The translations under genes were made by a program, and so were the position numbers. A DNA stretch of 45,512 bases. Source: Burkholderiales bacterium. GTDB lineage: Bacteria > Pseudomonadota > Gammaproteobacteria > Burkholderiales > Burkholderiaceae_C. Positions within the stretch are counted from its first letter, which is position 1. Each line of letters begins with the position of its first letter. The notes below the pieces were generated by a model, which was not told the DNA's origin, did not search any database, and saw nothing but the letters and a program-made list of their open reading frames with translations. This document shows positions 21,401 through 31,930 of the stretch, piece by piece. The stretch lies in contig JANPNF010000263.1 of assembly GCA_031427315.1 (NCBI GenBank), positions 1-45,512 of the forward strand, in the 5' to 3' direction.

Positions 21401-22095
21401 TCACCACCAAGTACAACCCGGCGCGCACCTGGACGCCGGAGAACGCGGTGGGCATCGGCGGTGCCTACCTGTGCGTCTACGGCATGGAAGGCCCGGGTGG
21501 CTACCAGTTCGTCGGCCGTACGGTGCAGATGTGGAACCGCTGGAAGGCCACGAGGGATTTCGAGCCCGGCAAGCCCTGGCTGCTGCGCTTCTTCGACCGG
21601 CTGCGCTTCTATCCTGTCGGTGCCGACGAGCTGCTGACGCTGCGCGCCGACTTCGTGGCGGGTCGGTCCTCTCTGCGCATCGAGGAGGGCACTTTCAAGC
21701 TCGCCGACTATCAGCGCTACCTGGTCGACAACGCAGCGGAGATCACCGCCTTCAAGGCCCGGCAACAAGCGGCCTTCGAGGCCGAGCGTGAGCGTTGGCG
21801 TGAGGCAGGCGTCGCCGACACGGTGGATGACACCGCCGACAACGATGCCGAAGCGCGCGCCGCGGCCGCCAGTGCCTTCGACGGCGAGGTCGTCACCTCC
21901 GAGGTGTCGGGCGGCGTCTGGTCGGTGCCGGTGGCGAAGGGCAGCGTGGTTCAGGCCGGTGACACGCTGATCGTCGTCGAGTCGATGAAGATGGAGATCA
22001 CCGTGCTGGCGCCACGCGATGGCGTGGTGCACGAGGTGCTGTGTGCCGAAGGGCAGCCGGTCACCGCGGGTCAGCCGCTGGTGTTGCTGCGCTGA
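18463..22095 (+). CDS. Biotin-dependent urea/guanidine carboxylase (biotin carboxylase, carboxyltransferase and BCCP in one chain)
   Basis: 1210 aa. N-terminus MFTKVLIANRGAIACRIIRT with an ATP-grasp domain, central KipA/KipI-like carboxyltransferase domains, and a C-terminal biotinyl motif VVESMKMEI. The riboswitch context suggests guanidine is the physiological substrate. Confidence 0.92.
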   Translation: MFTKVLIANRGAIACRIIRTLKRLGVASVAVYSEADAGALHVATADASVCIGPAPVAASYLNHARIIEAAQATGAQAIHPGYGFLSENAGFVDACEAAGLVFLGPTPQQMRLFGLKHTARALATTSGVPLLPGTGLLSDLNDALASAERIGYPVMLKSSAGGGGIGMQMCTGADELRAAFDTVRRLAQSNFSDAGVFIERYITDARHIEVQVFGDGAGGVLALGDRDCSLQRRHQKVVEEAPAPNLRPEVRAALHDTARRLAQAACYRSAGTVEFVVDARTQDFYFLEVNARLQVEHGVTEAVTGIDIVEWMVKLGAGDMPALDSLHIATTGHAVQARLYAEDPYKNFQPATGVLTHVQFPDDLRVDTWVERGTEVSAHYDPMLAKLIAHGSDRDDAIAKLSKALQETRVDGLESNLEYLRGVMSFAPFAQATHTTRSLASFSAPSRAFDVISPGVQTSVQDWPGRLGYWDVGVPPSGPMDPLALRLANRLVGNAQGVAGLEITVAGPTLRFRCATRVAVCGAPMDVTLDGEAAAMGRVLTIEAGQTLRIGRVGPTGGSRAYVAVHGGIDVADYLGSASTFTLGQFGGHGGRVLRGGDVLHIGSVSTLVAPLDAVAAAALTPACATHWDIGVLIGPHAAPDFFTPDDITTFFATDWQVHYNSSRTGVRLIGPKPTWARRDGGEAGLHPSNIHDNAYAIGAIDFTGDMPVILGPDGPSLGGFVCPATVVQAELWKLGQLSPGNTVRFKPWTLAQARALADSQDAVLAPEAPPRIAAPRARAELAEAAVLHRRAALDGQGSDGIEIVYRRAGDAYVLIEFGELKLDLTLRFHVHALMQRLQSWRDEGQLDGIVDLTPGIRSLQVHYDPSRIALPTLMDALLDAQHGVGSTADIEVPSRTVWLPLSWDDAATRLAIDKYMQSVRADAPWCPSNIEFIRRINGLDDIQTVYDTVFEASYLVLGLGDVYLGAPVATPLDPRHRLVTTKYNPARTWTPENAVGIGGAYLCVYGMEGPGGYQFVGRTVQMWNRWKATRDFEPGKPWLLRFFDRLRFYPVGADELLTLRADFVAGRSSLRIEEGTFKLADYQRYLVDNAAEITAFKARQQAAFEAERERWREAGVADTVDDTADNDAEARAAAASAFDGEVVTSEVSGGVWSVPVAKGSVVQAGDTLIVVESMKMEITVLAPRDGVVHEVLCAEGQPVTAGQPLVLLR

Positions 22096-22110
22096 CATCG
22101 AATCCAAAGG

Positions 22111-23946
22111 ATGGCTTTCATGCGACTCGACCTGTCCCTGCCCGCGCTACGGGCGCGCTACCACAGCGGCGCGCTGACGCCGGTGCAACTCGTCACCGAA
22201 CTGCACGCGCAGATCGAGGCCGAGGAGGCGGCTTCGCCGCGCAACGTCTGGATCCACCGCGTGTCGCTTGCGGCGCTGACGCGCTACGCCCACGCAGTGC
22301 AAGGCCGCGACCCGGCCACGTTGCCGCTGTACGGCATCCCGTTCGCGATCAAGGACAACATCGACCTGGCCGGCGTGCCCACCACCGCCGGCTGCCCGGC
22401 CTACGCCTACATCCCCGATCAAAGTGCCACGGTGGTGCAGCGGCTGATCGATGCCGGCGCGATCCCCGTCGGCAAGACCAACCTCGACCAGTTCGCCACC
22501 GGGTTGGTCGGGGTGCGCTCACCGTACGGCGCCTGCGGCAATGCGATCGACCCCGCTTTCATCTCCGGTGGCTCGTCGTCGGGCTCGGCGGTGTCGGTGG
22601 CGCTCGGCATGGCCAGTTTTTCGCTCGGCACCGATACCGCGGGCTCGGGCCGCGTGCCGGCGGCATTCAACAACCTGATCGGCCTGAAGCCCAGCCTGGG
22701 CCGCATCCCGACCACCGGCGTCGTGCCGGCCTGCCGCACGCTCGATGTGGTGTCGGTGTTCGCGCTGACCGCCGCCGATGCGGCGGTCGTGCTGGCCTGC
22801 GCGCAAGGGCCGGACCAGAGGGATGCCTATGCGCGCGCCATGCCGCCCCATGGGCACAACTTCGGCGCGACCGCATCGTTTCGCTTCGGCGTGCCGCGTC
22901 CGCAAGACCTGGTCTTCTACGGCAACGCCTTCGGCGCGGCGCATTACTCGCAGGCCACCGTGCATCTGCAAGCCCTCGGCGGTGTGCCGGTCGAGATCGA
23001 CCTGACTTCGTTTCGCAGCGTCGCCACGCTGCTCTACGAAGGCCCGTGGGTGGCCGAGCGCTATGCGGCGATCCGCGCGTTCATCGAGGCGCAGCCCGAG
23101 GCACTGCACCCGGTCACGCGCGCGATCACCGAAGCCGGGGCACGCCTCTCCGCTGCAGACACCTTTGCCGCGCTGTACCGGCTGAAGGCACTCGAACACG
23201 AGACGCGCGCTGCCTGGGGCGACATCGATTGCCTGGTCGTACCGACCGCACCGACGATTCACACGATCGCGGCCGTCGAGGCCGACCCGATCGGGTTGAA
23301 TTCGCAACTCGGCTGTTACACCAACTTCGTCAACCTGCTTGATTTGTCCGCCGTCGCGGTGCCGGTCGGTTTCGCCGCCGACGGCCCGGCGCGCGGGCTG
23401 CCCCACGGCGTCACGCTGATTGGCCGCTGCGGTCACGACCTGCCCTTGCTGACGCTGGCCGCGCGGCTGCATGCGCGCACGGTCGCCACTGTCGGCGCGA
23501 TGCCGCATTCACCGCACGTGACTGCGGGCGCGCCCAGCGAAGCTGCCTTCCCTTCAGGCCAGGTGCGGGTCGCGGTGTGCGGCGCGCACCTGAATGGGCT
23601 GCCGTTGAACCGGCAGCTGACGCAGCGCGGGGCCATGCTGGTGCGCGCGGTGCGCAGCGCGCCGGTCTACCGCTTCTATGCCTTGCCCGGAGGCCCGCCG
23701 TTTCGTCCCGGCATGGTTCGCGTCGAAGAGGGCGGTGGCGCCGTTGAGCTGGAAGTGTGGGAGCTGCCGGCGCGCGAGTTCGGCTCGTTCGTCGCGGGCA
23801 TCCCGGCGCCACTGGGCATCGGCACCGTGTGGCTCGAGGACGGGTCGTCGGTGCAAGGCTTCGTCTGCGAAAGCCACGCCGTGGCGGATGCGAAGGACAT
23901 TACCGCGCTCGGTGGCTGGCGCGCTTATCTGGCGACGCTGGTGTGA
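22111..23946 (+). CDS. Allophanate hydrolase (amidase-signature enzyme with C-terminal domain)
   Basis: Amidase signature GGSSSGSAVSVALG...GTDTAGSGRVPAAFN. 611 aa. The ATG at 22120 has better spacing to the AAAGGA Shine-Dalgarno than the listed ATG at 22111. Confidence 0.88.
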   Translation: MAFMRLDLSLPALRARYHSGALTPVQLVTELHAQIEAEEAASPRNVWIHRVSLAALTRYAHAVQGRDPATLPLYGIPFAIKDNIDLAGVPTTAGCPAYAYIPDQSATVVQRLIDAGAIPVGKTNLDQFATGLVGVRSPYGACGNAIDPAFISGGSSSGSAVSVALGMASFSLGTDTAGSGRVPAAFNNLIGLKPSLGRIPTTGVVPACRTLDVVSVFALTAADAAVVLACAQGPDQRDAYARAMPPHGHNFGATASFRFGVPRPQDLVFYGNAFGAAHYSQATVHLQALGGVPVEIDLTSFRSVATLLYEGPWVAERYAAIRAFIEAQPEALHPVTRAITEAGARLSAADTFAALYRLKALEHETRAAWGDIDCLVVPTAPTIHTIAAVEADPIGLNSQLGCYTNFVNLLDLSAVAVPVGFAADGPARGLPHGVTLIGRCGHDLPLLTLAARLHARTVATVGAMPHSPHVTAGAPSEAAFPSGQVRVAVCGAHLNGLPLNRQLTQRGAMLVRAVRSAPVYRFYALPGGPPFRPGMVRVEEGGGAVELEVWELPAREFGSFVAGIPAPLGIGTVWLEDGSSVQGFVCESHAVADAKDITALGGWRAYLATLV

Positions 23947-23988: not shown

Positions 23989-24004
23989 TGGCATGCGGAT
24001 TGCG
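23989..24004 (+). promoter_or_regulatory. Sigma-54 (RpoN) type -24/-12 promoter
   Basis: TGGCAT-GCGGA-TTGCG, intergenic, about 65 nt upstream of riboswitch copy 2. Confidence 0.55.
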
Positions 24005-24069
24005 TGGACGTGTGGGCAGGTGGAGCGAGTTCGCAGAGTCAAACCGTGCACTCCTCACACTCAGGGTCA

Positions 24070-24182
24070 CTAGGGTTCCGATTGGCAGTAATGCCGGTGC
24101 TGGTCCGAGAGTGCCCCGGCTTCGAAGGCTGCCGTGACAACGGCCGCGTCGAGGCTCCACGGAGGGATAAAAGCCCGGGAGA
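24070..24182 (+). promoter_or_regulatory. Guanidine-I riboswitch (ykkC-yxkD motif), copy 2
   Basis: CTAGGGTTCCG ... CTGGTCCGAGAG ... CCACGGAGGGATAAAAGCCCGGGAGA. Downstream, TCTCC (24203-24207) can pair with the aptamer-closing GGAGA (24178-24182), and a T-rich run lies at 24216-24223. Confidence 0.9.
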
Positions 24183-24239
24183 TTGACGCATCGAACACGT
24201 CTTCTCCTGCGCCCGTTTCTTTTACCTGGAGCTCTCGAC

Positions 24240-25292
24240 ATGGAATTCTTCTGTTCCCTTCGCTCTTCCCCTTCGTTCCCTGCGACGCTGCTGCGTCGAT
24301 TCAGTCACACCCTGGCCAAGCCGCTGGCTGGTGTGGCACTGGCTGCATTCGCGGTGGCCGGTCACGCGGCCGACGTCACGTCGATGAAGATCGGCACGGT
24401 CGTGTGGATCGGCTACGGGCCGTTCTATGTGGCCGAGAAGCTCGACCTGTTCAAGAAATACAAACTGAAGGTCAGCCTGCAGGTCTTCACCGACCCGGCG
24501 TTGATCCCCTCAGCCATTGCCAGCGGTGCGGTCGACGGCGGCATGCTGACCTATGACCAGGTCATCGGGCAAGTCGCCGCTGGTCGGTCGCAGAAGGTGG
24601 TGATGCCGATTGACTACTCGAATGGCGGCGACGCGATCGTGGCCGACAAAAGCATCGTCAAAGTGGCTGACTTCAAGGGCAAGAAGGTCGGTTTCAACCC
24701 GCTGTCGCCGTCCGACTTCCTGCTGTCGTACGCGCTCAAAGTCAACGGCCTGACCGACAAGGACATCACGCCGATCAACATGACTCCCGAATCCGTACCT
24801 GCGGCGATGGCGTCGGGCAAGCTGCAGATCGGCGTCACCTACGAGCCCAGCCTGTCGCAGATCATCAGCCAGGGCGGCGGCAAAAAGTTCAAGGTGGTGT
24901 TCTCGTCGAAGGACGCCCCGGGGCTGATCGCCGACGTGCTGGTGTTCGATGAGAAGGTCATCAAGGCCAAGCCGACCGAGATCTCCGGTGTCATCCAGGC
25001 CTACCTCGACGGCATGGCCTACATCAAGGCCAAGCCGGACGAGGCGGCCAAGATCATCGGCAAGGCAATGGGTGTGTCGGCGAAAGAAGTCAAAGAGCAG
25101 TGGTCGGGCGTCTACAACATCCCGCTGGCCGAGATGCCGAAGGCTTTCACCAAGGCGACCGAGACCACCTCGTACTACGCCAGCAGCGAAATCATTTCCG
25201 AGTTGCTGAAGGCCAAGGGCCAGATCACCACGGCGCCTGCCACCGAGGCGACGATGGATGCGCAATTCGTCACCGCGTTGGTGAAGAAGTGA
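24240..25292 (+). CDS. ABC transporter substrate-binding protein (NMT1/THI5-like, NitT/TauT family)
   Basis: GGAG lies 8 nt before the ATG at 24240. The signal peptide has a twin-arginine-like LLRRFSH motif and an AGHA-AD cleavage context. The mature part is homologous to the binding protein at 36671..37660. The listed TTG at 24183 would lie inside the riboswitch. Confidence 0.85.
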   Translation: MEFFCSLRSSPSFPATLLRRFSHTLAKPLAGVALAAFAVAGHAADVTSMKIGTVVWIGYGPFYVAEKLDLFKKYKLKVSLQVFTDPALIPSAIASGAVDGGMLTYDQVIGQVAAGRSQKVVMPIDYSNGGDAIVADKSIVKVADFKGKKVGFNPLSPSDFLLSYALKVNGLTDKDITPINMTPESVPAAMASGKLQIGVTYEPSLSQIISQGGGKKFKVVFSSKDAPGLIADVLVFDEKVIKAKPTEISGVIQAYLDGMAYIKAKPDEAAKIIGKAMGVSAKEVKEQWSGVYNIPLAEMPKAFTKATETTSYYASSEIISELLKAKGQITTAPATEATMDAQFVTALVKK

Positions 25293-26296
25293 GCTTCCGC
25301 GCCCCGGACGGCGCCGCGCCCAACATGGCGGCGCTGGCCTTCACCCTCATCGGCTACCCGGTCGGCATCGCCTTGTTGACCGTGCCGTCCTGGGCGCTCA
25401 ACGCGATCGGATTCGTGCTGCTGACGCTGACCCTCGTCTGGTCGGCCTACTACATCCATGAGTTCGCGCACCAGGCCATTTTCCGCAACCCAGCGCTCAA
25501 CGAACGCTGGGGCACGCTGATGAGCTGGCTCAACGGCAGCTGCTACGCACGCTTCGCCGACCTGCGGCGCAAGCACATGCGCCACCACGTCGAGCGCGCC
25601 GACGTGATCACCTTCGATGCACGCGGCTTCCTGCTGGCCGCCCCGGCCTGGCTGCGCCGCAGCGTGCTGGCGCTGGAGTGGGCCTACTTCCCGGCGGTCG
25701 AATTCCTGATGCGCGGCTTCGTGGTCGCGCTGCCGTTCAAGCCCGGCGGCTCGAATGCGACACGGGCCCGCATCGTCAGCATTGCCTTGCTGAGATTCGG
25801 CGCCTTCGCCGCGCTCGGCTGGTATTCGCCGAAGGCGCTGGTGCTGTACTTCACCGCCTACCTGGCATTCGTCACGGTGCTGCGTTTCGCCGACTGTTTC
25901 CAGCACACCTACGACGCGTACCCGATCCTGGATGACGCGCCGATCCCGAACGACAAGGTGCGTGACCGCGCCTACGAACAGGCCAACACCTTCAGCAACG
26001 TCGTCGGGCTCGACAGCTTCTGGCTGAACTTGCTGTGGCTGAACTTCGGCTACCACAACGCCCACCACGAGCGCCCCACCGTGCCCTGGCACCGCTTGCC
26101 GGCCTATCACCGTGAGCTCTACGGTGAGGGCTACCGCCAGGTGGTGCCGATGAGTCAGCTGCTGAAGGCGTTTCACCGGCACCGCCTCACCCGTGTGCTG
26201 TCGGGCGATTACGGCGAGGTTCGCGACCCCGAAGTGTCTGGGCGTGCCGATGGCTTCGTCGGCGCGGTCGGCGTGTCGTTCCTGACGGCGGTCTGA
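25289..26296 (+). CDS. Membrane fatty-acid-desaturase-family di-iron enzyme (desaturase/hydroxylase-like)
   Basis: Three histidine boxes, HEFAH, HMRHH and HNAHH, with hydrophobic N-terminal and central segments. The start is either the GTG at 25289, overlapping the upstream stop (GTGA), or the ATG at 25325. Confidence 0.8.
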   Translation: MSFRAPDGAAPNMAALAFTLIGYPVGIALLTVPSWALNAIGFVLLTLTLVWSAYYIHEFAHQAIFRNPALNERWGTLMSWLNGSCYARFADLRRKHMRHHVERADVITFDARGFLLAAPAWLRRSVLALEWAYFPAVEFLMRGFVVALPFKPGGSNATRARIVSIALLRFGAFAALGWYSPKALVLYFTAYLAFVTVLRFADCFQHTYDAYPILDDAPIPNDKVRDRAYEQANTFSNVVGLDSFWLNLLWLNFGYHNAHHERPTVPWHRLPAYHRELYGEGYRQVVPMSQLLKAFHRHRLTRVLSGDYGEVRDPEVSGRADGFVGAVGVSFLTAV

Positions 26297-26297
26297 T

Positions 26298-27122
26298 GTG
26301 ACCGTCAACGTCGCTTCGCGGGGTGGCCCGCGGACTGAGCCGTGCCACGGCCTGCAAGGCCTCACCGTGGTGTTGACCGGTGCGGCCGGCGGCATCGGTC
26401 GCGCGCTGGCGACGGCGTTCGCCGAACAGGGCGTGCGCTTGATCGTGACCGATCGCGATACGCAAGCCCTGCACCGCCTGGCCGACGGGCTGGCGGCCAG
26501 CGCACAGGTGACAGCGATCGCCGCCGACCTCGGGCTGGACCACGACCTGAACGCCTTCGCAGCCGATGTGCAAGCCAGCCACGGTCGGGTCGACGTGCTG
26601 GTCAACAACGCCGGTACCGAGTACCCGACACCGCTGGCCGATGTGGCGCCGGACGCCGCAGCGCGCTGGTCGGCACTGCTCGACAACAACGTCGGCAGCA
26701 TGGCTCGGCTCACCCGTGCGCTGTTGCCGCTGATGACCGAGGGCGCCAGCGTCATCAACCAATCGTCGATCTGGGGGCTGACCGGTGTGGCGGACTTCTC
26801 GGCCTATGTGGCGAGCAAACATGCGGTGATCGGCCTCACGCGTTCACTGGCCTGGGAGCTGGCGCCGCGCGGCATCCGTGTCAATGCGGTGTGTCTGGGC
26901 TGGATCCGCACCGAGGCAGCGCTGCGCTCGCTGGCCAGCATGGCCGCCGTGCAAGGGCGCAGCGAAGCCGAGGTGGAACGCGAGATCCTGTCGCGGCAGG
27001 CCAACCCGACGATGCTGGACGCGTCCGACATCGCCGGCGTGTTTCTGTTCCTGGCGAGTCGCGACGCGCTCTCGCTGACCGGCCAGGCGATCAGTGCCAG
27101 CCATGGCGAGGTCATGAATTGA
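26298..27122 (+). CDS. Short-chain dehydrogenase/reductase
   Basis: TGAAGGIGRA, NNAG and YVASKHA (YxxxK). The GTG lies 1 nt after the upstream stop. Confidence 0.85.
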   Translation: MTVNVASRGGPRTEPCHGLQGLTVVLTGAAGGIGRALATAFAEQGVRLIVTDRDTQALHRLADGLAASAQVTAIAADLGLDHDLNAFAADVQASHGRVDVLVNNAGTEYPTPLADVAPDAAARWSALLDNNVGSMARLTRALLPLMTEGASVINQSSIWGLTGVADFSAYVASKHAVIGLTRSLAWELAPRGIRVNAVCLGWIRTEAALRSLASMAAVQGRSEAEVEREILSRQANPTMLDASDIAGVFLFLASRDALSLTGQAISASHGEVMN

Positions 27123-27904
27123 TGGCGACCGAAACAGCGCTCACCGACACCCTTCGGCTGACCCTCGTCGGCCGCGTCGTGCTGGTGACGGGTGCCGCAA
27201 CCGGCATCGGCCGGGCCATCGCCCTGGCCTGCGGCCGCGCCGGGGCGGCGGTCGCGGTCAACCACCTGGGCCGCGCGGCAGAGGCCGAGTCCGTCGTGAG
27301 GCAACTCGCGGCGGCGGGGGCATCAGCACTGGCCTTCGAGGCCGATGTGACCCAGGCCGCCGCGGTGACCGCCATGGTCAGCGCGGTGGAGCGCGCCTTC
27401 GGGCCGATCGATGCGCTGGTCAACAACGCCGGCATCCTGCAGGAAAAGCCCTTCCTCGACACCACGGAAGCCGATTGGGATCGCATGCTCGACACGGACC
27501 TGAAGTCGGTCTTCCTGATGTGCAAGGCGGTGCTGCCCGGTATGGTCGCCCGCAGTACTGGGGTGATCGTCAACATCGCCTCCGACCTCGGCGTGCTGGG
27601 CCGTGCGCAGTTCGCGCCCTACTGCGCCGCCAAGGCCGGCGTGATCGGCCTGACGCGTTCGCTGGCGCGCGAGTTCGCACCGCACATCCGCGTCAATGCG
27701 ATCGCGCCGGGGGCGGTTGCCACTGCGATGCTGTCGACCGAACACATGAGCCCGGAATGGATCGCCAAGGAACTCGACATCCCGCAGCACCGCTTCGGCG
27801 AACCCGACGAAATCGCCGCCACCGCGTTGTTTTTGCTGTCCGACCTGTCGCGCTTCTATTGCGGGCAGGTGCTGAGCCCGAACGGCGGCTCGCTGATGGC
27901 ATGA
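27122..27904 (+). CDS. Short-chain dehydrogenase/reductase (FabG-like)
   Basis: TGAATGIGRA, NNAG and YCAAKAG. The start overlaps the upstream stop (TGATG). Confidence 0.88.
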   Translation: MATETALTDTLRLTLVGRVVLVTGAATGIGRAIALACGRAGAAVAVNHLGRAAEAESVVRQLAAAGASALAFEADVTQAAAVTAMVSAVERAFGPIDALVNNAGILQEKPFLDTTEADWDRMLDTDLKSVFLMCKAVLPGMVARSTGVIVNIASDLGVLGRAQFAPYCAAKAGVIGLTRSLAREFAPHIRVNAIAPGAVATAMLSTEHMSPEWIAKELDIPQHRFGEPDEIAATALFLLSDLSRFYCGQVLSPNGGSLMA

Positions 27905-27920
27905 GTCCACGGCGTCAACG

Positions 27921-28850
27921 ATGTTTCCCGCCACCTCGCCCGTGATCGTGGCCGCGAACCCGACGCCGCGCGATACCCGCGGGCCCACGCTGGTGCTGCT
28001 CACCTCGACCGTGTTGTGGGGCCTGCTGTGGTGGCCGCTGAAGGGCTTCTCCGCCGCCGGCTTGTCGGGGCCGGTGTTGTCCTTGCTGACCTATGGCGCG
28101 GTCGGTGTCTGCAGCATCGGTTTTTTGTGGCGCCAACGCCGGGCCTGGCGACCGCAGACCGGTTTGCTGCTGTTGCTGATGGCGGTCGGCGGCTGGGCCA
28201 ATTCCGCTTTCGTGCAGGCGCTGGTGCTCGGCGACGTGGTGCGGGTGATGCTGCTGTTCTACTTGGCGCCGGTGTGGTCGGTGCTGGGTGGGCGATTGTT
28301 CCTGGGCGAGGCGATCAGCCGCCGTCGCGGGTTCGCGGTGGCGCTGGCGCTGGTCGGCCTGTGGTTCGTGATCGGTGGCAGCGCGGCCTGGGCGCGGCCC
28401 TTGGGCACCGCCGACTGGCTGGCGTTGACGGCGGGTCTCGCCTTCGCCGGCAACAACCTGATCTCGCGCGCCGCACAGGCGATCCCAATGCTGTCGAAGA
28501 CGGTGGCGGTGTTCTTCGGTTGCGGCGTGGTGTCGGCGGCCAGCGCGCTGCTGACCGGCGCGGTCGTGCCAGTGATCAGCGTGCCGCTCGCGCTGGGCCT
28601 GGCGGGCTACGCCTTCGTCTGGCTGGTGCTGGCGACCGTCACCTGGCAGTACGGCGTGACGCACCTCGAAAGCGGCCGTGCGGGCGTGATCCTGACCATC
28701 GAATTGCTGGTGTCGGTGGTGTCGGCCGTGCTGCTGGGCGGGGAATCGCTGCGGCCGAGTGAATGGGCTGGTGGCGTGCTGATAGCCGTTGCGGCATTGA
28801 TCGAGGCCACCGATTCGAACGAGTCTGTACATAAGGAGATCTCTGTATGA
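27921..28850 (+). CDS. EamA/DMT-family membrane transporter
   Basis: 309 aa, about 10 hydrophobic helices, and the two-fold internal EamA architecture. Confidence 0.8.
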   Translation: MFPATSPVIVAANPTPRDTRGPTLVLLTSTVLWGLLWWPLKGFSAAGLSGPVLSLLTYGAVGVCSIGFLWRQRRAWRPQTGLLLLLMAVGGWANSAFVQALVLGDVVRVMLLFYLAPVWSVLGGRLFLGEAISRRRGFAVALALVGLWFVIGGSAAWARPLGTADWLALTAGLAFAGNNLISRAAQAIPMLSKTVAVFFGCGVVSAASALLTGAVVPVISVPLALGLAGYAFVWLVLATVTWQYGVTHLESGRAGVILTIELLVSVVSAVLLGGESLRPSEWAGGVLIAVAALIEATDSNESVHKEISV

Positions 28851-29611
28851 GCACTGTCTGGATGAACCAGCTGTCGTGGGTCGACTACGAGGCGCGGCTG
28901 AAGCAGGACCAGCCTGCGATCCTGCTGCCGGTCGGTGCGCTCGAACAACACGGTCCCCACCTGCCGCTGGGCACCGACGGCCTGCTGTCCGCTGCGGTCG
29001 CCGCCGATACCGCCGCGCGCATCGGCGCGCTGGTCGCGCCGACGCTGTCGTATGGCTACAAATCGCAGCCGAAGTGCGGCGGAGGTCAGCATTTCTGCGG
29101 CACCACCAGTGTCGACGCGGCGACTTTGATCGGCTCGGTGCGTGATGCGGTGCGCGAGTTCGCACGGCACGGTGCCACCAAACTGGTGTTCGTCAACGGC
29201 CACTACGAGAACCAGTGGTTCCTGACCGAAGGCATCGACCTCGGCCTGCGCGACCTCGGCGCGCGCTCGACGCTGCAGGTGATGCGCCTCGAATACTGGG
29301 ACTTCCTGTCGGAGGCCACGCTGGCCAGCGTGTTCCCCGACGGCTTCCCCGGCTTCGCACTGGAGCATGCGGCGGTGATCGAGACCTCGATGATGCTGCA
29401 CTACCACCCGAGCCTGGTGCGGCTGGATTTGATCCCCGACGAGTCGCCGGCCGACTTCCCGCCCTACGACGTCTACCCGACGCGCAAGCACTGGGTGCCG
29501 CTGTCGGGCGTGCTGTCGTCGGCGCGCGGTTCCAGCGCCGAGAAGGGTGCAGCGATGGCGGCCGAGCTGTCGATGCGCATCGCCGCAGCGATCACGCACG
29601 AATTCGGCTGA
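28847..29611 (+). CDS. Creatinine amidohydrolase (creatininase)
   Basis: LSWVDYEARL, LPVGALEQHGPHLPLGTD, YGYKSQPKCGGGQHFCGTTS, VNGHYEN and FPPYDVYP follow the Pseudomonas putida creatininase sequence, as I remember it, block by block. AAGGAG Shine-Dalgarno, and the ATG overlaps the upstream stop (ATGA). Confidence 0.85.
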   Translation: MSTVWMNQLSWVDYEARLKQDQPAILLPVGALEQHGPHLPLGTDGLLSAAVAADTAARIGALVAPTLSYGYKSQPKCGGGQHFCGTTSVDAATLIGSVRDAVREFARHGATKLVFVNGHYENQWFLTEGIDLGLRDLGARSTLQVMRLEYWDFLSEATLASVFPDGFPGFALEHAAVIETSMMLHYHPSLVRLDLIPDESPADFPPYDVYPTRKHWVPLSGVLSSARGSSAEKGAAMAAELSMRIAAAITHEFG

Positions 29612-29625
29612 CGAGTTCGACCGAG

Positions 29626-30294
29626 ATGAGCAAGCCGATGTTCGACGTGTCCCGCACTGCGCTGCTGGTGATCGACCTGCAGCGCGATTTCCTCGATTCG
29701 CGCGGCTACGCGGCACAGGCGGGTGTCGATGTGTCGCGGCTGCGCGCCACGCTGGCCCCGGTGTGCGCACTGATCGACGCGGGGCGAGAGGCCGGTCTGC
29801 GCATCGCCTACACCCGCGAAGGGCACCGGCCCGACCTGTTGGATTGCCCGCCGGCCAAGCTGGCGCGCAGCCGCCACGCGGGCGCCGAAATCGGCTCGAC
29901 CGGGCCGCTCGGCCGCTTGCTGGTGCGTGGCGAACCGGGCCATGGGCTGGTCGACGAGCTGCAGCCGCGCGCCGATGAGCCGGTGATCGACAAACCCGGC
30001 TACAGCGCCTTCCACCAGACCGATCTCGACCAGATTTTGCGCGGCTGGGGCACCGACACCCTGATCGTCTGCGGCGTCACCACCGAGGTCTGTGTGCACA
30101 CCACGCTGCGAGCGGCTACCGACCACGGTCTGCGCTGCATCACCGTCAGCGATGCCTGTGCCGCCTCTGATCCGGCGCTGCAGCAACCCGCGCTGGCGAT
30201 GATTGCGGTCGAAGGCGGCATCTTTGGTGTGGTGATCGACAGCGCCACACTGATTGCGCAACTGCAGCGCCCCCACGACAAGGAGATCCGATGA
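29626..30294 (+). CDS. Isochorismatase-family cysteine hydrolase (biuret/guanylurea/N-carbamoylsarcosine amidase-like)
   Basis: Asp-Lys-Cys triad context: LLVIDLQRDF, VIDKPGYSAF, LIVCGVTTEVCVHTT. Confidence 0.8.
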   Translation: MSKPMFDVSRTALLVIDLQRDFLDSRGYAAQAGVDVSRLRATLAPVCALIDAGREAGLRIAYTREGHRPDLLDCPPAKLARSRHAGAEIGSTGPLGRLLVRGEPGHGLVDELQPRADEPVIDKPGYSAFHQTDLDQILRGWGTDTLIVCGVTTEVCVHTTLRAATDHGLRCITVSDACAASDPALQQPALAMIAVEGGIFGVVIDSATLIAQLQRPHDKEIR

Positions 30295-31097
30295 CACAGG
30301 TACGCAAACTCACGCCGCTGCTGACAGCCACGCATCGGTACGACAAATCGATCTCGACCTGGCAGCGCGGGCGCGGTCAGCAAATCGAGGCGCCGATCCT
30401 CGCCTACCTGATCGAGACTGCGAACGGCCGCATCCTGTACGACGTGGGCTGCGACCACGCGAAGATTGCTGATCCGGTTGCCCGCAATCGCCACTACAAC
30501 CCGGCGACCTTCGAGTTTGGCGCGCCCGACATGCGCGAGGAGCAGCGCCTTCCGCGCCATCTGGCGCGGCTCGGCCTGACGCCGGCCGATGTCGACGTGA
30601 TCTTCATCGGCCACCTGCATTTCGACCACGCCGGCGGGTTGCGCGAGCTGCGCCGCTGCGGCTGTGGTGCCGAAATCCATGTGCAGCGTGACGAGATGGA
30701 AGTCGCACTCAGCGGCGCCGACCCGGCGGTGTTCGCCGACGACCTGATCGACGACGTTGGCGCGCCGCTGCAGTTCAGGCTGCAGTCGGGCGAGTACAGC
30801 GTGCTGCCCGGCGTGCAGGCGGTGGCAACGCCTGGCCACACGGTCGGCCACATGTCGATGTGGATCGAGATGCCGAAAGGCCCACCGGTCCTGCTGGCCG
30901 GTGATGCGGCCGATCTGCAGGAAAACATCGACGACGAGGTTGCGCCTGGAACACTGTGGCAGGGCAGCGAGGCGCAGGCCATCGCCAGCATCCGCAAGTT
31001 GAAGGCGCTGGCCGCCGACACCGGCGCCTGGCTGTGGCCGAACCACGATTTCGCGTTCTACCGCTCGCTGCCGGCGTTTCCGCAGTTTGTGGAATGA
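30291..31097 (+). CDS. Metallo-beta-lactamase-fold hydrolase (lactonase-like)
   Basis: HLHFDHAGG (HxHxDH), TPGHTVGH, LLAGD. AAGGAG Shine-Dalgarno and an ATGA overlap with the upstream gene. Confidence 0.82.
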   Translation: MTQVRKLTPLLTATHRYDKSISTWQRGRGQQIEAPILAYLIETANGRILYDVGCDHAKIADPVARNRHYNPATFEFGAPDMREEQRLPRHLARLGLTPADVDVIFIGHLHFDHAGGLRELRRCGCGAEIHVQRDEMEVALSGADPAVFADDLIDDVGAPLQFRLQSGEYSVLPGVQAVATPGHTVGHMSMWIEMPKGPPVLLAGDAADLQENIDDEVAPGTLWQGSEAQAIASIRKLKALAADTGAWLWPNHDFAFYRSLPAFPQFVE

Positions 31098-31897
31098 CCG
31101 TGGGCGACACCGTTCCCGACGTCCCCGAGCGCTACCGCGGGGTGTGGCGGCGCACGCTGCTCGAAACGCCGAATCACCGTGACACCACAACCTGGGTGCA
31201 CTGGCTGCAGACCACGCGCTGGCACGCCGACCTGCGCGTGCCCGCCGCAGCGGAGGCGGGGCGGTCGGCAATCGCGCTCGATGCAATGGGCCCGGCGCAG
31301 CACCTCGCGCTGGCGCAGCAGCAAGGCTTTTTCGGCCGCACCGAGGTTCAGTCGCAGGGGCCGCGCGACATATGCACCTGGCACCGCCGACTCGACCTGC
31401 AGCCGCCAGGGCTGACGCCCGATGCCGGCTGGATGGCCTTCGACGGTGATGACCGCGTCATCGAAACCGGTGTGCACGGCGTGTACCGCGAGGTGTGGGA
31501 ACGCCTACCCGGCTCGACGGGGCGCACGCTGGTGCTGGCCGACACGGCTGCGCCGCCGGGTGACGACGCTGAAGCGACCGCGACAGCACGCGCCTACCTG
31601 CTGCTCGCCGGTGACTGGTTGATGCGCGTGCGACCGCGGCGGGTCGGCTGGCCACCAGGCACGGCCCCGGGCGACACGCTGGGCAGGCTGCTCGCCCTGC
31701 ATCCGGCCTCGGCCACGGCGCTGCTCGACTTCGAGATTTCGTTTGGTCGGCTGCGCAACGGTGCGTGGCACATCGAGCGATCCAGCCTGCCCGAGCTTGA
31801 AGGCCGCACCGAAGCGATGCACTGGCAGCCACTCGATGACCTGCGCACCGAGGTGCGCTGTGACTTGAGCACCTCCGTTTGGTGCATGCTGGACTGA
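31094..31897 (+). CDS. Hypothetical protein, last gene of the riboswitch-2 operon
   Basis: 267 aa, with an ATGA overlap with the MBL gene and codon usage like its neighbours. I recognise no motif in it. Confidence 0.6.
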   Translation: MTVGDTVPDVPERYRGVWRRTLLETPNHRDTTTWVHWLQTTRWHADLRVPAAAEAGRSAIALDAMGPAQHLALAQQQGFFGRTEVQSQGPRDICTWHRRLDLQPPGLTPDAGWMAFDGDDRVIETGVHGVYREVWERLPGSTGRTLVLADTAAPPGDDAEATATARAYLLLAGDWLMRVRPRRVGWPPGTAPGDTLGRLLALHPASATALLDFEISFGRLRNGAWHIERSSLPELEGRTEAMHWQPLDDLRTEVRCDLSTSVWCMLD

Positions 31898-31914
31898 TTT
31901 CCAAGCGGACAGGC

Positions 31915-31930
31915 AGGCACGCCTGTTGCT
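31915..31930 (+). promoter_or_regulatory. Sigma-54 (RpoN) type -24/-12 promoter
   Basis: AGGCAC-GCCTG-TTGCT, intergenic. The predicted transcription start falls inside the palindromic operator that follows. Confidence 0.5.

What the first reader, a model, noticed from the sequence alone, without database searches (positions are those of the whole stretch)
23989..31897. Second guanidine-I riboswitch heads a nine-gene operon that matches no described pathway
A complete ykkC/guanidine-I aptamer (24070-24182) sits behind its own sigma-54-type promoter and in front of nine same-strand genes. These genes are joined by overlapping or abutting stop and start codons: GTGA at 25289/25292, a stop followed 1 nt later by GTG at 26296/26298, TGATG at 27122, and ATGA at 28847, 30291 and 31094. 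They therefore look like one translationally coupled transcript. Binding proteins and creatininase-family genes are known companions of guanidine riboswitches. I cannot name a pathway that combines them with the other seven products. Those are a His-box membrane di-iron enzyme, two SDRs, an EamA carrier, an HxHxDH MBL-fold hydrolase, an orphan protein, and an Asp-Lys-Cys cysteine hydrolase. That hydrolase family contains biuret, triuret and guanylurea hydrolases and N-carbamoylsarcosine amidase. Working hypothesis (inference only): the operon is a funnel that opens or oxidises cyclic or N-substituted guanidines, such as creatinine- or guanylurea-like compounds, to free guanidine. That guanidine would induce both riboswitches and be consumed by the carboxylase operon immediately upstream.
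Basis: partly seen in the sequence, partly recalled or inferred. Interest (0 to 1): 0.85.

Follow-up and report, generated by a model that had tools for sequence, protein, structure and literature searches.

The report
Riboswitch-controlled operon that releases free guanidine
A guanidine-sensing RNA switch controls nine genes, conserved across many freshwater and soil Burkholderiales, that most likely convert methylguanidine, guanylurea and creatinine-type compounds into free guanidine for the neighbouring nitrogen-assimilation genes, using a membrane iron enzyme not previously linked to this chemistry.

Summary
Rfam finds a full-length guanidine-I aptamer at 24059-24183 (76 bits, cut-off 63) with a competing terminator, behind a sigma-54-like motif. 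Nine intact, tightly coupled genes follow (24240-31897).

The block is real and conserved:
- g1-g9 keep the same order in about 56 Burkholderiales loci.
- 52 of 53 testable loci have the riboswitch in front of g1.
- The block repeatedly lies next to, or inside, the guanidine carboxylase operon.

- The "orphan" g9 is a homologue of MgdL, the N-(hydroxymethyl)guanidine lyase described in October 2025 (hhalign 99.95%; catalytic Asp/Arg invariant).
- g7 is 60% identical to a validated guanylurea hydrolase.
- g6 passes the creatininase equivalog model.

So the closest characterised relatives of two products, g9 and g7, release free guanidine, and "matches no described pathway" is only partly true.

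What looks new is the partner. In place of the 2-oxoglutarate dioxygenase MgdH, every block carries a membrane His-box di-iron enzyme (g2), the inferred hydroxylase. The roles of the SDRs, EamA carrier, creatininase and lactonase-like hydrolase, and the true substrates, are inferred only.

Verdict: a new variant of a known kind; interest about 0.66.

The parts
23989..24003 (+). Sigma-54-type promoter motif, TGGCAT-N5-TTGC (GG-N10-GC)
   Evidence: Sequence read. One of only two matches in the window (0.42 expected), each upstream of a guanidine-I aptamer. Conserved at a fixed distance upstream of the riboswitch in 15 of 52 g1 leaders and 12 of 16 carboxylase-operon leaders. Function not tested.
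24059..24183 (+). Guanidine-I (ykkC subtype 1) riboswitch aptamer
   Evidence: Rfam RF00442, 76.0 bits against a gathering score of 63, model positions 1-107. The same element lies 19-191 nt before g1 in 52 of 53 related loci (Rfam confirmation).
24173..24223 (+). Expression platform: terminator hairpin plus T-run that shares its 5' arm with the aptamer's 3' strand
   Evidence: RNA fold of 24150-24245 gives -38.2 kcal/mol, z = -3.4. The sequence GTTTCTTTT follows the stem.
24240..25292 (+). g1: periplasmic NMT1/SsuA-type substrate-binding protein. Inferred partner of the permease and ATPase of the carboxylase operon.
   Evidence: PF09084 and PF13379. The carboxylase operon here and in relatives starts with the permease and has no binding protein. 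In L085, a g1 orthologue (71% identity) and an A_perm orthologue (70%) bracket the block within one operon.
25289..26296 (+). g2: integral-membrane His-box di-iron enzyme of the FA_desaturase family. Inferred hydroxylase acting on an N-alkyl group of a guanidine, a functional stand-in for MgdH.
   Evidence: PF00487 at 128.6 bits. Weak NCBIfam hit to GntB, the arginine gamma-hydroxylase. His boxes H57EFAH, H96MRHH and H256NAHH plus H206 are invariant in 28 homologues. Present in 56 of 56 loci that carry g1 and g9. No MgdH homologue in the window or in 80 loci.
26298..27122 (+). g3: SDR oxidoreductase, role unknown
   Evidence: PF13561 and PF00106. Resembles 3-hydroxybutyrate dehydrogenase but scores below the cut-off. 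Present in 49 of 56 loci.
27122..27904 (+). g4: SDR oxidoreductase, role unknown
   Evidence: PF13561 and PF00106, FabG-like. Present in 52 of 56 loci.
27921..28850 (+). g5: EamA/DMT membrane carrier
   Evidence: PF00892, two repeats. Present in 52 of 56 loci.
28847..29611 (+). g6: creatininase (creatinine amidohydrolase)
   Evidence: TIGR04448 equivalog at 354.9 bits against a cut-off of 235. E 1e-78 to Pseudomonas putida creatininase structures, with the LEQHG, D44 and GHYEN motifs kept. Present in 52 of 56 loci.
29626..30294 (+). g7: isochorismatase-like cysteine hydrolase, probable guanylurea hydrolase
   Evidence: PF00857. Scores 239 bits on the BiuH model against a cut-off of 370, so it is not BiuH. 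60.3% identical to the validated guanylurea hydrolase BB_00025 of plasmid pMET-2, against 44-50% to biuret hydrolases. The three best hits among 72,556 plasmids are plasmids of wastewater Pseudomonas, among them pMET-2 of the metformin degrader P. mendocina MET. Asp17, Lys123 and Cys156 sit in the conserved motifs. Present in 52 of 56 loci.
30291..31097 (+). g8: MBL-fold hydrolase resembling AiiA and 4-pyridoxolactonase (HLHFDH at residue 108), substrate unknown
   Evidence: PF00753. NCBIfam AiiA and 4-pyridoxolactonase models score below their cut-offs. PDB AiiA E 5e-30. Present in 39 of 56 loci.
31094..31897 (+). g9: MgdL-family lyase. Inferred to split an N-(1-hydroxyalkyl)guanidine into guanidine plus an aldehyde.
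   Evidence: BLASTP to V. boliviensis MgdL: 33% identity, E 2e-24. hhalign 99.95%, E 1.9e-37, covering the full length. WHADLR with D46 and R48 invariant, matching catalytic D49 and R51. AlphaFold model is a beta-barrel with pLDDT 93.
31909..31928 (+). Hairpin GACAGGC-aggcac-GCCTGT just after the g9 stop codon. Probable 3' end of the operon, but weak because no T-run follows.
   Evidence: Read from the sequence. Not reported by the terminator scan.
14909..23946 (+). Linked upstream operon, the sink for the guanidine: sigma-54-like motif, guanidine-I riboswitch, ABC permease and ATPase, CgdA and CgdB, guanidine-II riboswitch, guanidine (urea) carboxylase, allophanate hydrolase.
   Evidence: The same arrangement is described for Raoultella and Klebsiella in PMC12186494.

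Best explanation
The nine genes form one guanidine-induced transcription unit. It probably also depends on sigma-54, and so on nitrogen limitation. It acts as an accessory module of the guanidine carboxylase pathway: it imports substituted guanidines and converts them to free guanidine.

Proposed mechanism:
1. At low guanidine, transcription stops at the terminator at 24173-24223. Guanidine stabilises the aptamer and transcription reads through.
2. g1 is the periplasmic binding protein that works with the permease and ATPase encoded in the neighbouring carboxylase operon.
3. The invariant core is g2 plus g9. g2, a membrane His-box di-iron monooxygenase, hydroxylates the carbon attached to a guanidine nitrogen. 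The most likely target is the methyl group of methylguanidine. g9, an MgdL-type lyase, then splits the resulting stable hemiaminal into guanidine plus an aldehyde (formaldehyde). g2 would therefore be a non-homologous replacement for the 2-oxoglutarate dioxygenase MgdH.
4. Variable feeder enzymes widen the substrate range. g7 hydrolyses guanylurea to guanidine. g6 interconverts creatinine and creatine. The two SDRs and the lactonase-like g8 process oxidised or cyclic intermediates. g5 moves a substrate or a toxic intermediate across the membrane.
5. The released guanidine sustains induction of both riboswitches. It is then assimilated by guanidine carboxylase, CgdAB and allophanate hydrolase.

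Shown: the riboswitch, the operon anatomy, the conservation and the family memberships.
Inferred: every catalytic step, the pairing of g2 with g9, and the substrates.
For: Riboswitch and terminator. Coupled junctions with no internal signals.

Conservation:
- g1-g9 are collinear in Rhizobacter, Rubrivivax, Aquabacterium, Leptothrix, Hydrogenophaga, Polaromonas, Rhodoferax, Hylemonella and Actimicrobium.
- The riboswitch precedes g1 in 52 of 53 loci, with Rfam confirmation in L023, L085 and L087.
- g2 is present in 56 of 56 loci that carry both g1 and g9. Accessory genes vary: the full set occurs 29 times, the set lacking g8 17 times, the set lacking g7 3 times, and the minimal set g1-g2-g7-g8-g9 twice.

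g9 is an MgdL homologue: hhalign 99.95%, with the catalytic Asp and Arg invariant. MgdL biochemistry comes from PMC12508155.

MgdL-family genes sit directly after a 2-OG dioxygenase in Vreelandella and Roseibium. In Burkholderiales they sit in the block behind the FA_desaturase gene. No MgdH homologue lies in the window or in 80 loci.

In metagenome contig L085 the block (SBP, FA_desaturase, SDR, EamA, creatininase, MgdL-like) lies inside a single carboxylase operon, between the binding protein and the permease. This is the same slot that MgdH and MgdL occupy in Roseibium.

g7 is 60% identical to a validated guanylurea hydrolase. g6 passes the creatininase equivalog model.

One FA_desaturase-family enzyme, GntB, is known to hydroxylate a free guanidino compound. 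NCBIfam gives a weak hit to it.
Against: - No biochemical or expression data exist for any gene of this block.
- g2 has no informative characterised relative. The GntB hit is only 19.9 bits against a cut-off of 380. Its structure model is poor (pLDDT 63), and no electron donor is encoded nearby.
- FA_desaturase enzymes usually act on lipophilic substrates.
- g9 is only about 30-33% identical to MgdL, and MgdL itself is narrowly specific, so g9's substrate may differ.
- A methylguanidine-only role would need just g1, g2 and g9. No locus is that minimal, so the accessory enzymes are not explained.
- Gallionella has an MgdL-like gene with no adjacent oxygenase.
- One locus (L026) shows no riboswitch.
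- The loci were retrieved through g9, so "g2 always accompanies g9" is conditional on that sampling. Stand-alone g9 paralogues do exist.
Confidence: 0.58

Rival explanations
1. All nine products form a single linear pathway from creatinine to guanidine. It would be an enzymatic version of the known chemical route from creatinine through creatol (5-hydroxycreatinine) to methylguanidine.
1. g6 equilibrates creatine with creatinine (or guanidinoacetate with glycocyamidine).
2. g2 hydroxylates ring carbon C5.
3. g9 opens or cleaves the cyclic hemiaminal.
4. The SDRs oxidise the resulting aldehyde or carbinol.
5. g7 and g8 hydrolyse the acyl-guanidine to methylguanidine or guanidine plus a C2 acid.
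6. A second round through g2 and g9 removes the methyl group.
For: - g6 is a creatininase by equivalog score and is present in 52 of 56 loci.
- Oxidation of creatinine through creatol to methylguanidine is established chemistry (PMC3775425).
- The authors who described MgdH and MgdL name creatinine as the only known (abiotic) source of methylguanidine.
- This reading gives a task to the hydroxylase, the dehydrogenases and the three hydrolases.
- The SDR-plus-MBL-lactonase pairing resembles the steps from pyridoxal to 4-pyridoxolactone to 4-pyridoxate (NCBIfam hits).
Against: - The accessory genes are lost independently. Seventeen loci lack g8, three lack g7, and four lack both g6 and the SDRs. 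That fits parallel feeders better than one obligatory chain.
- Only one oxygenase is present for two chemically different hydroxylations.
- g7's nearest characterised relative acts on guanylurea, which is not an intermediate of this route.
- No enzymatic precedent exists for any of the middle steps.
Confidence: 0.22
2. The block protects against guanidine rather than feeding it. In this reading guanidine induces enzymes that remove adducts of guanidine with cellular carbonyls (cyclic hydroxy-imidazolidines or hydro-imidazolones, which resemble creatinine), or that remodel membrane lipids through g2. g5 would export the products.
For: - Induction by guanidine itself is the logic of the detoxification genes known under these riboswitches (review PMC12186494).
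- FA_desaturase-family enzymes normally modify lipids or other hydrophobic molecules.
- g9 has a calycin/lipocalin-like beta-barrel fold.
- An EamA carrier is present.
Against: - g9 is homologous over its full length to a lyase that acts on a small polar guanidine, and it keeps that enzyme's catalytic residues.
- g7 is closest to a guanidine-producing hydrolase.
- The block is headed by an uptake binding protein and is embedded in, or adjacent to, the assimilation operon. It is not linked to a Gdx exporter.
- A sigma-54-type promoter points to nitrogen scavenging.
Confidence: 0.1
3. Only g1 (with the transporter) is functionally tied to guanidine. In this reading g2-g9 are a hitch-hiking cassette for an unrelated substrate that happens to be inserted between the binding-protein gene and the permease gene.
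For: - The substrates of g2, g3, g4, g5 and g8 are unknown.
- The block looks like an insertion into a binding-protein/permease operon.
Against: - The arrangement is kept across at least nine genera, with sequence divergence down to about 45-70% identity.
- Three of the eight cassette products (g6, g7, g9) have their closest characterised relatives in guanidino-compound metabolism.
- A separate riboswitch copy is maintained in front of the block even when it is detached from the carboxylase operon.
Confidence: 0.05

Closest known systems
MgdH/MgdL methylguanidine demethylation module in the guanidine-I/-II-controlled guanidine carboxylase operon of Vreelandella (Halomonas) boliviensis (Sinn et al., Nat Commun 2025, PMC12508155)
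   Same: - A guanidine-I riboswitch controls guanidine-producing enzymes together with ABC uptake and the carboxylase pathway.
- An MgdL-family beta-barrel lyase with the same Asp-x-Arg catalytic pair is present (g9).
- An oxygenase gene lies upstream of the lyase gene: directly before it in Vreelandella and Roseibium, and at the head of the block (g2) here.
- In both cases the product, guanidine, is the inducer.
   Different: - The oxygenase is not a soluble 2-OG/Fe(II) dioxygenase. It is an integral-membrane His-box di-iron FA_desaturase-family protein, and no MgdH homologue is nearby.
- The module is a separate nine-gene operon with its own riboswitch.
- It carries six further genes: two SDRs, EamA, creatininase, a GuuH-like hydrolase and an MBL.
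- g9 is only about 30-33% identical to MgdL.
- The hosts are Burkholiales-order betaproteobacteria (Burkholderiales), not halophilic gammaproteobacteria.
Guanylurea hydrolases: GuuH of Pseudomonas mendocina GU, and BB_00025 of plasmid pMET-2 in P. mendocina MET (PMC9800807)
   Same: - g7 is an isochorismatase-like cysteine hydrolase, 60.3% identical to BB_00025.
- The pMET-2 gene also sits among an NMT1-type binding protein, a permease (57% identical to this window's operon-A permease) and an ATPase.
   Different: - The pMET-2 cluster is LysR-associated, flanked by insertion sequences and plasmid-borne. It has a deaminase neighbour, and no riboswitch is reported for it.
- g7's activity is untested. 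It could prefer biuret-like or other ureido substrates.
Creatininase (CrnA) of the Pseudomonas putida pathway from creatinine through creatine to sarcosine plus urea
   Same: - g6 passes the TIGR04448 equivalog model.
- It aligns end to end with the solved enzyme and keeps the metal-binding motifs.
   Different: - No creatinase or sarcosine oxidase accompanies it here.
- The context predicts a route that ends in guanidine rather than urea.
- g6 has Phe in the GF(L/P)G(W/F) flap motif. Its best PDB match is an entry with Phe at that position. That this position corresponds to Trp174 is my recollection and was not checked.
GntB, the transmembrane L-arginine gamma-hydroxylase of guanitoxin biosynthesis (NCBIfam NF041365)
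   Same: It is a member of the same His-box membrane di-iron superfamily, and it hydroxylates a small polar guanidino compound. This shows that such chemistry is possible in the family (papers listed).
   Different: - The similarity is marginal: 19.9 bits against a cut-off of 380.
- GntB is biosynthetic, cyanobacterial and not riboswitch-linked.
- It hydroxylates a carbon remote from the guanidine nitrogen and does not release guanidine.
Canonical guanidine-I/guanidine-II-controlled guanidine carboxylase operon (Raoultella, Klebsiella; review PMC12186494)
   Same: The upstream operon in this window has that architecture: guanidine-I, then importer and CgdAB, then guanidine-II, then carboxylase and allophanate hydrolase.
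   Different: Here the binding-protein gene has been separated from the permease and ATPase genes. It heads the extra nine-gene operon under a second guanidine-I copy.

Membership tests
Guanidine-I riboswitch (Rfam RF00442) | Covariance-model score at or above the curated gathering score, over the full model | tested here: met
   76.0 bits against 63, model positions 1-107, at 24059-24183
Guanidine-I riboswitch (Rfam RF00442) | Expression platform that competes with the aptamer (intrinsic terminator, ON switch) | tested here: met
   The hairpin at 24173-24212 plus a T-run shares GCCCGGGAG with the aptamer. The structure is predicted only.
Guanidine-I riboswitch (Rfam RF00442) | Selective binding of guanidine and ligand-dependent read-through | not testable with these tools
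   Needs in-line probing or a reporter assay. No other Rfam family reached its threshold at this site.
MgdL, N-(hydroxymethyl)guanidine lyase (Sinn et al. 2025) | Sequence homology to V. boliviensis MgdL over the whole protein | tested here: met
   BLASTP E 2e-24 at 33% identity. hhalign probability 99.95%, E 1.9e-37, 214 columns, residues 5-242 against 3-228. Burkholderiales homologues are already in the authors' alignment.
MgdL, N-(hydroxymethyl)guanidine lyase (Sinn et al. 2025) | Catalytic Asp49 and Arg51 (WHADxR) | tested here: met
   g9 has W43-H44-A45-D46-L47-R48. D46 and R48 are invariant in 24 homologues and align to D49 and R51.
MgdL, N-(hydroxymethyl)guanidine lyase (Sinn et al. 2025) | Beta-barrel fold with the conserved residues inside the barrel | tested here: inconclusive
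   The AlphaFold model is all-beta, pLDDT 93, pTM 0.90. Its only PDB resemblances are weak, to lipocalin/calycin barrels. The positions of the conserved residues in the model could not be inspected.
MgdL, N-(hydroxymethyl)guanidine lyase (Sinn et al. 2025) | Gene adjacent to an MgdH-type 2-OG/Fe(II) dioxygenase | tested here: not met
   No MgdH homologue in the window or in 80 related loci. The partner is an FA_desaturase-family gene in 56 of 56 loci.
MgdL, N-(hydroxymethyl)guanidine lyase (Sinn et al. 2025) | Accelerates fragmentation of N-(hydroxymethyl)guanidine to guanidine plus formaldehyde | not testable with these tools
   Requires an enzyme assay.
Guanylurea hydrolase (isochorismatase-like hydrolase family) | PF00857 domain with the Asp-Lys-Cys triad | tested here: met
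   PF00857 at 151 bits. D17, K123 and C156 lie in the motifs VIDLQ, DKPG and EVCVH, which are shared with BB_00025 and BiuH.
Guanylurea hydrolase (isochorismatase-like hydrolase family) | Closer to a validated guanylurea hydrolase than to biuret or triuret hydrolases | tested here: met
   60.3% identity to BB_00025 against 49.5% and 44.1% to BiuH 6xjm and 6azo. The NCBIfam BiuH equivalog scores 239, below its cut-off of 370. GuuH of strain GU itself was not available for comparison.
Guanylurea hydrolase (isochorismatase-like hydrolase family) | Guanylurea strongly preferred over biuret as substrate | not testable with these tools
   Requires an enzyme assay.
Creatininase (NCBIfam TIGR04448 equivalog) | Score above the curated equivalog cut-off | tested here: met
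   354.9 bits against 235
Creatininase (NCBIfam TIGR04448 equivalog) | Binuclear-metal ligands and catalytic His conserved | tested here: met
   E33, H35, D44, H119 and E121, plus the EH(A/G) motif, align with the P. putida enzyme. That these residues are the metal ligands is from my memory of the structures. The flap residue is Phe rather than Trp.
Membrane fatty-acid desaturase/hydroxylase superfamily (PF00487) | Pfam score above the gathering threshold, three His boxes and transmembrane helices | tested here: met
   128.6 bits against 29.7. HEFAH, HMRHH, HNAHH and H206 are invariant. Hydrophobic helices lie at 14-45 and 183-201.
GntB arginine gamma-hydroxylase (NF041365 equivalog) | Score above the equivalog cut-off | tested here: not met
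   19.9 bits against 380. This is a functional analogy only.
MgdH methylguanidine hydroxylase (2-OG/Fe(II) dioxygenase) | 2OG-FeII_Oxy fold | tested here: not met
   g2 has no 2OG-FeII_Oxy domain. tblastn with two MgdH sequences finds nothing in the window or the 80 loci. The proposal is that g2 works like MgdH, not that it is an MgdH.

The most novel reading that the evidence does not exclude
g2 is the first membrane His-box di-iron (FA_desaturase/AlkB-type) N-dealkylase for small guanidines. Together with creatininase, the SDRs, the lactonase-like hydrolase and the MgdL-type lyase, the operon would then encode a complete and so far unknown enzymatic route from creatinine or creatine, through methylguanidine, to free guanidine. 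That would be a biological source of methylguanidine and guanidine in freshwater and soil Burkholderiales.
Probability: 0.3. Interest if true: 0.82.

Novelty: new variant of a known kind. Interest (0 to 1): 0.66.

Why it matters
Where free guanidine and methylguanidine come from in nature is an acknowledged open question in the riboswitch and guanidine field. The authors who described MgdH and MgdL say it explicitly: the only source of methylguanidine they name is abiotic decay of creatinine, and they know of no experimental evidence for enzymatic production.

This block is conserved in many environmentally abundant Burkholiales-order genera (Burkholderiales). It places a creatininase, a guanylurea-hydrolase-like enzyme and an MgdL-type lyase under one guanidine riboswitch, next to the carboxylase pathway. 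It therefore offers concrete, clonable candidates for enzymatic guanidine release from creatinine, an abundant vertebrate waste product, and from guanylurea, the metformin and dicyandiamide breakdown product.

It also predicts a new catalytic role, N-demethylation of a small cation, for the membrane di-iron desaturase/hydroxylase superfamily. Cultured carriers exist for direct testing, including Hydrogenophaga pseudoflava NBRC 102511, H. laconesensis BE240, Polaromonas sp. CG9_12 and Aquabacterium sp. CECT 9606.

Tried and rejected
1. Fold search for g9. The AlphaFold model is confident (pLDDT 93), but Foldseek against the PDB gave no match with E below 0.001. It returned only weak lipocalin, FABP and AttH-like barrels. 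The function came from the literature, not from the fold.
2. Structure of g2. The model is poor (pLDDT 63), and Foldseek returned nothing significant. FtAlkB and a desaturase-like chloroplast subunit reach only TM about 0.36. phmmer against PDB sequences found nothing.
3. Names in the protein database. About 240 listed homologues of g2 and g9 are all called \"fatty acid desaturase\" or \"hypothetical protein\".
4. Literature searches combining guanidine riboswitch with desaturase, isochorismatase or creatininase found no description of this block. The review PMC12623156 offers only a speculative link between creatininase-like enzymes and oxidised guanine products. I considered that idea (opening of guanidinohydantoin or iminoallantoin rings) and set it aside, because it needs neither the oxygenase nor an MgdL-type lyase.
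5. Stand-alone g9 paralogues in Aquabacterium (L050, L061) sit beside SET-domain or methyltransferase genes and gave no functional hint.
6. g7 as a biuret hydrolase was rejected. It scores below the NCBIfam cut-off and is closer to a guanylurea hydrolase.
7. g10-g13 as part of the operon was rejected as the primary reading. A hairpin plus a unique palindrome separates them from g9, and they are conserved only in L001 and L002.
8. PMC8208167 (the GuuH paper) and PMC5360189 (Nelson 2017) are not held, so GuuH of strain GU and the original gene-association list could not be checked.

Full report

Yes. Rfam places a full-length guanidine-I aptamer at 24059-24183 on the + strand (76.0 bits, gathering score 63, model positions 1-107). 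The window also holds a second guanidine-I aptamer at 14972-15080, a guanidine-II aptamer at 18397-18444, and an unrelated TPP riboswitch.

Directly after the aptamer, a hairpin (24173-24212) re-uses the aptamer's 3' strand GCCCGGGAG and is followed by GTTTCTTTT. A GGAG Shine-Dalgarno sequence and the ATG of the first gene at 24240 come next. That is the standard terminator-type ON switch of this class.

The sigma-54-type motif TGGCATGCGGATTGC sits at 23989-24003. The pattern TGGCAYN5TTGC occurs only twice in the 45.5-kb window against 0.42 expected. The other copy (14909-14923) precedes the first guanidine-I aptamer. In related loci the motif recurs at a fixed distance upstream of the riboswitch in 15 of 52 leaders of the nine-gene block and in 12 of 16 leaders of the carboxylase operon. 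Most Hydrogenophaga leaders lack a strict match. So the promoter call is plausible and partly conserved, but untested.

- GTGA at 25289-25292
- TGA, one nt, then GTG at 26294-26300
- TGATG at 27120-27124
- ATGA at 28847, 30291 and 31094
- two short gaps of 16 nt and 14 nt

No sigma-70-like site lies inside the block. Terminator-like hairpins are no more frequent than in shuffled sequence.

**2. What the products are**

| Gene | Family assignment | Key evidence |
|---|---|---|
| g1 | NMT1/SsuA-type periplasmic binding protein | PF09084, PF13379 |
| g2 | FA_desaturase (PF00487) | His boxes H57EFAH, H96MRHH and H256NAHH plus H206, all invariant in 28 homologues |
| g3, g4 | SDRs | PF13561, PF00106 |
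| g5 | EamA carrier | PF00892 |
| g6 | creatininase | TIGR04448 equivalog 354.9 bits, cut-off 235 |
| g7 | isochorismatase-type cysteine hydrolase | PF00857 |
| g8 | MBL resembling AiiA and 4-pyridoxolactonase | HLHFDH motif |
| g9 | no Pfam or NCBIfam hit | see below |

Three refinements matter.

(a) g6 aligns end to end with the solved Pseudomonas putida creatininase (E 1e-78) and keeps the metal-binding motifs.

(b) g7 is not a biuret hydrolase by NCBI's cut-off (239 bits against 370). Among 72,556 plasmids, its three best matches are plasmids of wastewater Pseudomonas, among them pMET-2 of the metformin degrader P. mendocina MET. On pMET-2 the matching gene lies beside a deaminase gene, among binding-protein, permease and ATPase genes. 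That is the description of BB_00025, which was purified and shown to be a guanylurea hydrolase with negligible biuret activity (PMC9800807). g7 is 60.3% identical to it, against 44-50% to two crystallised biuret hydrolases.

(c) g9 is not an orphan. It has at least 504 homologues, all annotated as hypothetical. Its AlphaFold model is a very confident all-beta barrel (pLDDT 93), with no significant PDB neighbour.

The function of g9 came from a literature search. Sinn et al. (Nat Commun, October 2025, PMC12508155) showed that in Vreelandella boliviensis a guanidine-I-controlled guanidine carboxylase operon carries two extra genes:
- mgdH encodes a 2-OG/Fe(II) dioxygenase that hydroxylates methylguanidine.

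g9 matches MgdL by BLASTP (33% identity, E 2e-24). The match is profile-to-profile over essentially the whole length (hhalign 99.95%, E 1.9e-37). Its WHADLR motif supplies D46 and R48, which are invariant in my 24-sequence alignment and align to D49 and R51. The authors' own supplementary alignment already contains Aquabacterium, Polaromonas, Hydrogenophaga and Rhodoferax sequences of this type. However, their text discusses only the Vreelandella and Salinisphaera operons.

**3. Is the block a unit, and is it tied to guanidine?**

A genome scan seeded with the g9 alignment returned 80 loci, essentially all from Burkholderiales. They include Rhizobacter, Rubrivivax, Aquabacterium, Leptothrix, Hydrogenophaga, Polaromonas, Rhodoferax, Hylemonella, Azohydromonas and Actimicrobium.

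tblastn with the window's proteins shows g1 to g9 in the same order nearly everywhere. The gene content of the 56 loci that contain both ends is:

| Gene content | Loci |
|---|---|
| all nine genes | 29 |
| lacking only g8 | 17 |
| lacking only g7 | 3 |
| reduced forms, down to g1-g2-g7-g8-g9 | 7 |

g2 is present in 56 of 56 of these loci.

A motif search for the guanidine-I core finds the riboswitch 19-191 nt upstream of g1 in 52 of the 53 loci that have enough upstream sequence. Rfam confirmed every one of the four leaders of this kind that I re-checked and, like the motif search, found none in the exception L026.

The guanidine carboxylase genes lie in one of three positions:
- immediately upstream, as in this window
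- immediately downstream, behind their own riboswitch (Polaromonas, Rhodoferax)
- a few kb downstream (several Hydrogenophaga)

They fall within the fetched flanks in 26 of 59 block loci; many of these contigs are short.

In these genomes the carboxylase operon begins riboswitch-then-permease and has no binding-protein gene. In metagenome contig L085 everything is one uninterrupted operon: riboswitch, binding protein (71% identical to g1), FA_desaturase, SDR, EamA, creatininase, MgdL-like, permease (70% identical to the window's operon-A permease), ATPase, CgdAB, carboxylase. In Roseibium, MgdH and MgdL occupy the same slot between the binding-protein and permease genes.

I conclude that g1 is the binding protein of the transporter encoded in the carboxylase operon. 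The two riboswitch-controlled operons therefore form one functional system.

**4. How it most likely works**

The invariant core is g1, g2 and g9. MgdL-family genes follow a 2-OG dioxygenase in Vreelandella and Roseibium. In Burkholderiales they lie in the block behind the FA_desaturase gene. tblastn with two MgdH sequences finds nothing in the window or in the 80 loci.

The simplest reading is a non-homologous replacement. g2 would supply the hydroxylation of the carbon bound to a guanidine nitrogen, most likely the methyl group of methylguanidine. g9 would then release guanidine plus an aldehyde. A precedent exists for a His-box membrane di-iron enzyme acting on a small guanidino compound. 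This is GntB, the arginine gamma-hydroxylase, to which g2 gives only a weak NCBIfam hit (19.9 bits).

The variable genes look like parallel feeders:
- g7: guanylurea to guanidine.
- g6: interconversion of creatinine and creatine.
- The SDRs and the lactonase-like g8: unidentified oxidised or cyclic intermediates.

Guanidine as inducer of its own producers is what was found for mgdH and mgdL. There the guanidine-I aptamer rejects methylguanidine while the guanidine-II aptamer accepts it. This window has the same pair of riboswitch classes.

Shown: the RNA element, the operon anatomy, the conservation and the family memberships. Inferred: all catalytic steps, the partnership of g2 with g9, and the substrates.

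**5. Rivals**

(i) One linear pathway from creatinine through creatol and methylguanidine to guanidine, using all the enzymes. This is attractive because that chemistry is known abiotically (PMC3775425) and because it gives every enzyme a task. But the accessory genes are lost independently of one another, and g7's closest relative acts on guanylurea.

(ii) A protective or repair role: guanidine adducts, or lipid remodelling by g2.

(iii) A hitch-hiking cassette unrelated to guanidine.

Rivals (ii) and (iii) fit the uptake binding protein, the MgdL and GuuH homologies and the embedding in the assimilation operon poorly.

**6. Limits**

- g2 has no informative characterised relative. Its structure model is poor (pLDDT 63), so the Foldseek results are meaningless.
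- No electron donor for g2 is encoded nearby.
- g9 shares only about 30-33% identity with MgdL, which is narrowly specific.
- Gallionella has an MgdL-like gene with no oxygenase beside it.
- The loci were sampled through g9, so the co-occurrence statistics are conditional on that. Stand-alone g9 paralogues do exist.

**7. Comparison with what is known, and novelty**

The riboswitch, the carboxylase operon, creatininase, guanylurea hydrolase and, since late 2025, MgdL are all known kinds. I found no description in the searchable literature of three things:
- the conserved nine-gene operon as such
- the pairing of an MgdL-type lyase with a membrane di-iron oxygenase in place of MgdH
- the recruitment of creatininase, SDRs, an EamA carrier and a lactonase-like hydrolase under the same guanidine switch

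I rate it a new variant of a known kind. It bears directly on the open question of where methylguanidine and guanidine come from biologically, and cultured carriers make it testable. I score interest at 0.66.

**8. Operon boundary**

After the g9 stop codon (31897) come a short hairpin (31909-31928) and a perfect, unique AT-rich palindrome, GTATTACGAAT-N6-ATTCGTAATAC, at 31938-31965. Four more + strand genes follow:
- an ABC permease (ATG at 32036)
- an ATPase
- a second, divergent creatininase-family protein
- a type III glutamine-synthetase-like protein (TIGR03105, 640 bits)

A NikR-family regulator gene and another NMT1-type binding-protein gene lie on the opposite strand. These four genes accompany the block only in the two closest relatives. 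I therefore treat them as a separate unit (see the passing notes).

Noticed in passing
window 31938-31965 (palindrome); 32036-36068 (+); 36188-36661 (-); 36674-38230 (-): A unique perfect palindrome, GTATTACGAAT-N6-ATTCGTAATAC (= GTATTA-N16-TAATAC), lies between g9 and the next gene. From memory, this is the architecture of the E. coli NikR operator GTATGA-N16-TCATAC. Downstream on the + strand are an ABC permease, an ATPase, a divergent creatininase-family protein and a type III glutamine-synthetase-like protein. A NikR-family regulator gene and an NMT1-type binding-protein gene lie on the opposite strand. This looks like a separate, NikR-type-controlled unit.
   Followed up: partly
L084 (Gallionella acididurans) 9760-18759; window 33931-36661: In Gallionella the same trio lies in one gene row with cgdA, cgdB, guanidine carboxylase and allophanate hydrolase: a creatininase-family protein, a GS-like protein (80% identical to the window's) and a NikR-family protein (70% identical). 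An MgdL-like gene sits at the end of the row. This trio may therefore be another conserved, uncharacterised companion of the guanidine carboxylase pathway.
   Followed up: partly
window 14972-18367: The carboxylase operon starts riboswitch-then-permease and has no binding-protein gene of its own. The same holds in the related loci. Its guanidine-I leader carries the window's only other TGGCAYN5TTGC motif, at 14909-14923.
   Followed up: yes
window 28847-29611 (g6), residues about 165-172: g6 reads GFPGF where the P. putida creatininase entry it matches best (3a6e) reads GFLGF. I recall the wild-type enzyme having Trp174 in this flap, which would make 3a6e a W174F variant. If so, g6 naturally carries Phe at a substrate-contacting position, hinting at a substrate other than creatinine. 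This was not verified.
   Followed up: no
L026 (Comamonadaceae MAG), upstream of g1 at about 2900-3855: This is the only locus with a complete 5' flank in which neither the motif search nor Rfam finds a guanidine-I riboswitch before g1. This locus also lacks g7.
   Followed up: partly
L050 10001-10771; L061 10001-10723; L012 281-1099: Stand-alone g9/MgdL-like paralogues (47-53% identical to g9) occur outside any guanidine context. In Aquabacterium they lie next to a SET-domain gene or a methyltransferase gene. L012 is a second copy in a MAG that also has the full block.
   Followed up: partly
P0241 (V. boliviensis MgdL), name field: UniRef labels the MgdL cluster "DUF3445 domain-containing protein", although no Pfam domain is recorded for the protein. 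From memory, DUF3445 is the family of heme-dependent oxidative N-demethylases, so the label may be a mis-propagated name.
   Followed up: no
window 3288-3398 and 3466-5373: A TPP riboswitch (71.2 bits) lies directly upstream of thiC (PF01964). This is an ordinary arrangement. The rest of the window holds chromosomal housekeeping genes: EptA-type phosphoethanolamine transferase, a PabB-PabC fusion, PurC and a GGDEF protein.
   Followed up: yes
L081 (pMET-2) 4537-8245: The validated guanylurea hydrolase gene of pMET-2 is embedded in a row of binding protein, deaminase, hydrolase, permease and ATPase genes. Its permease is 57% identical to the permease of this window's carboxylase operon, which suggests a shared guanidine/guanylurea-type ABC importer lineage.
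   Followed up: partly
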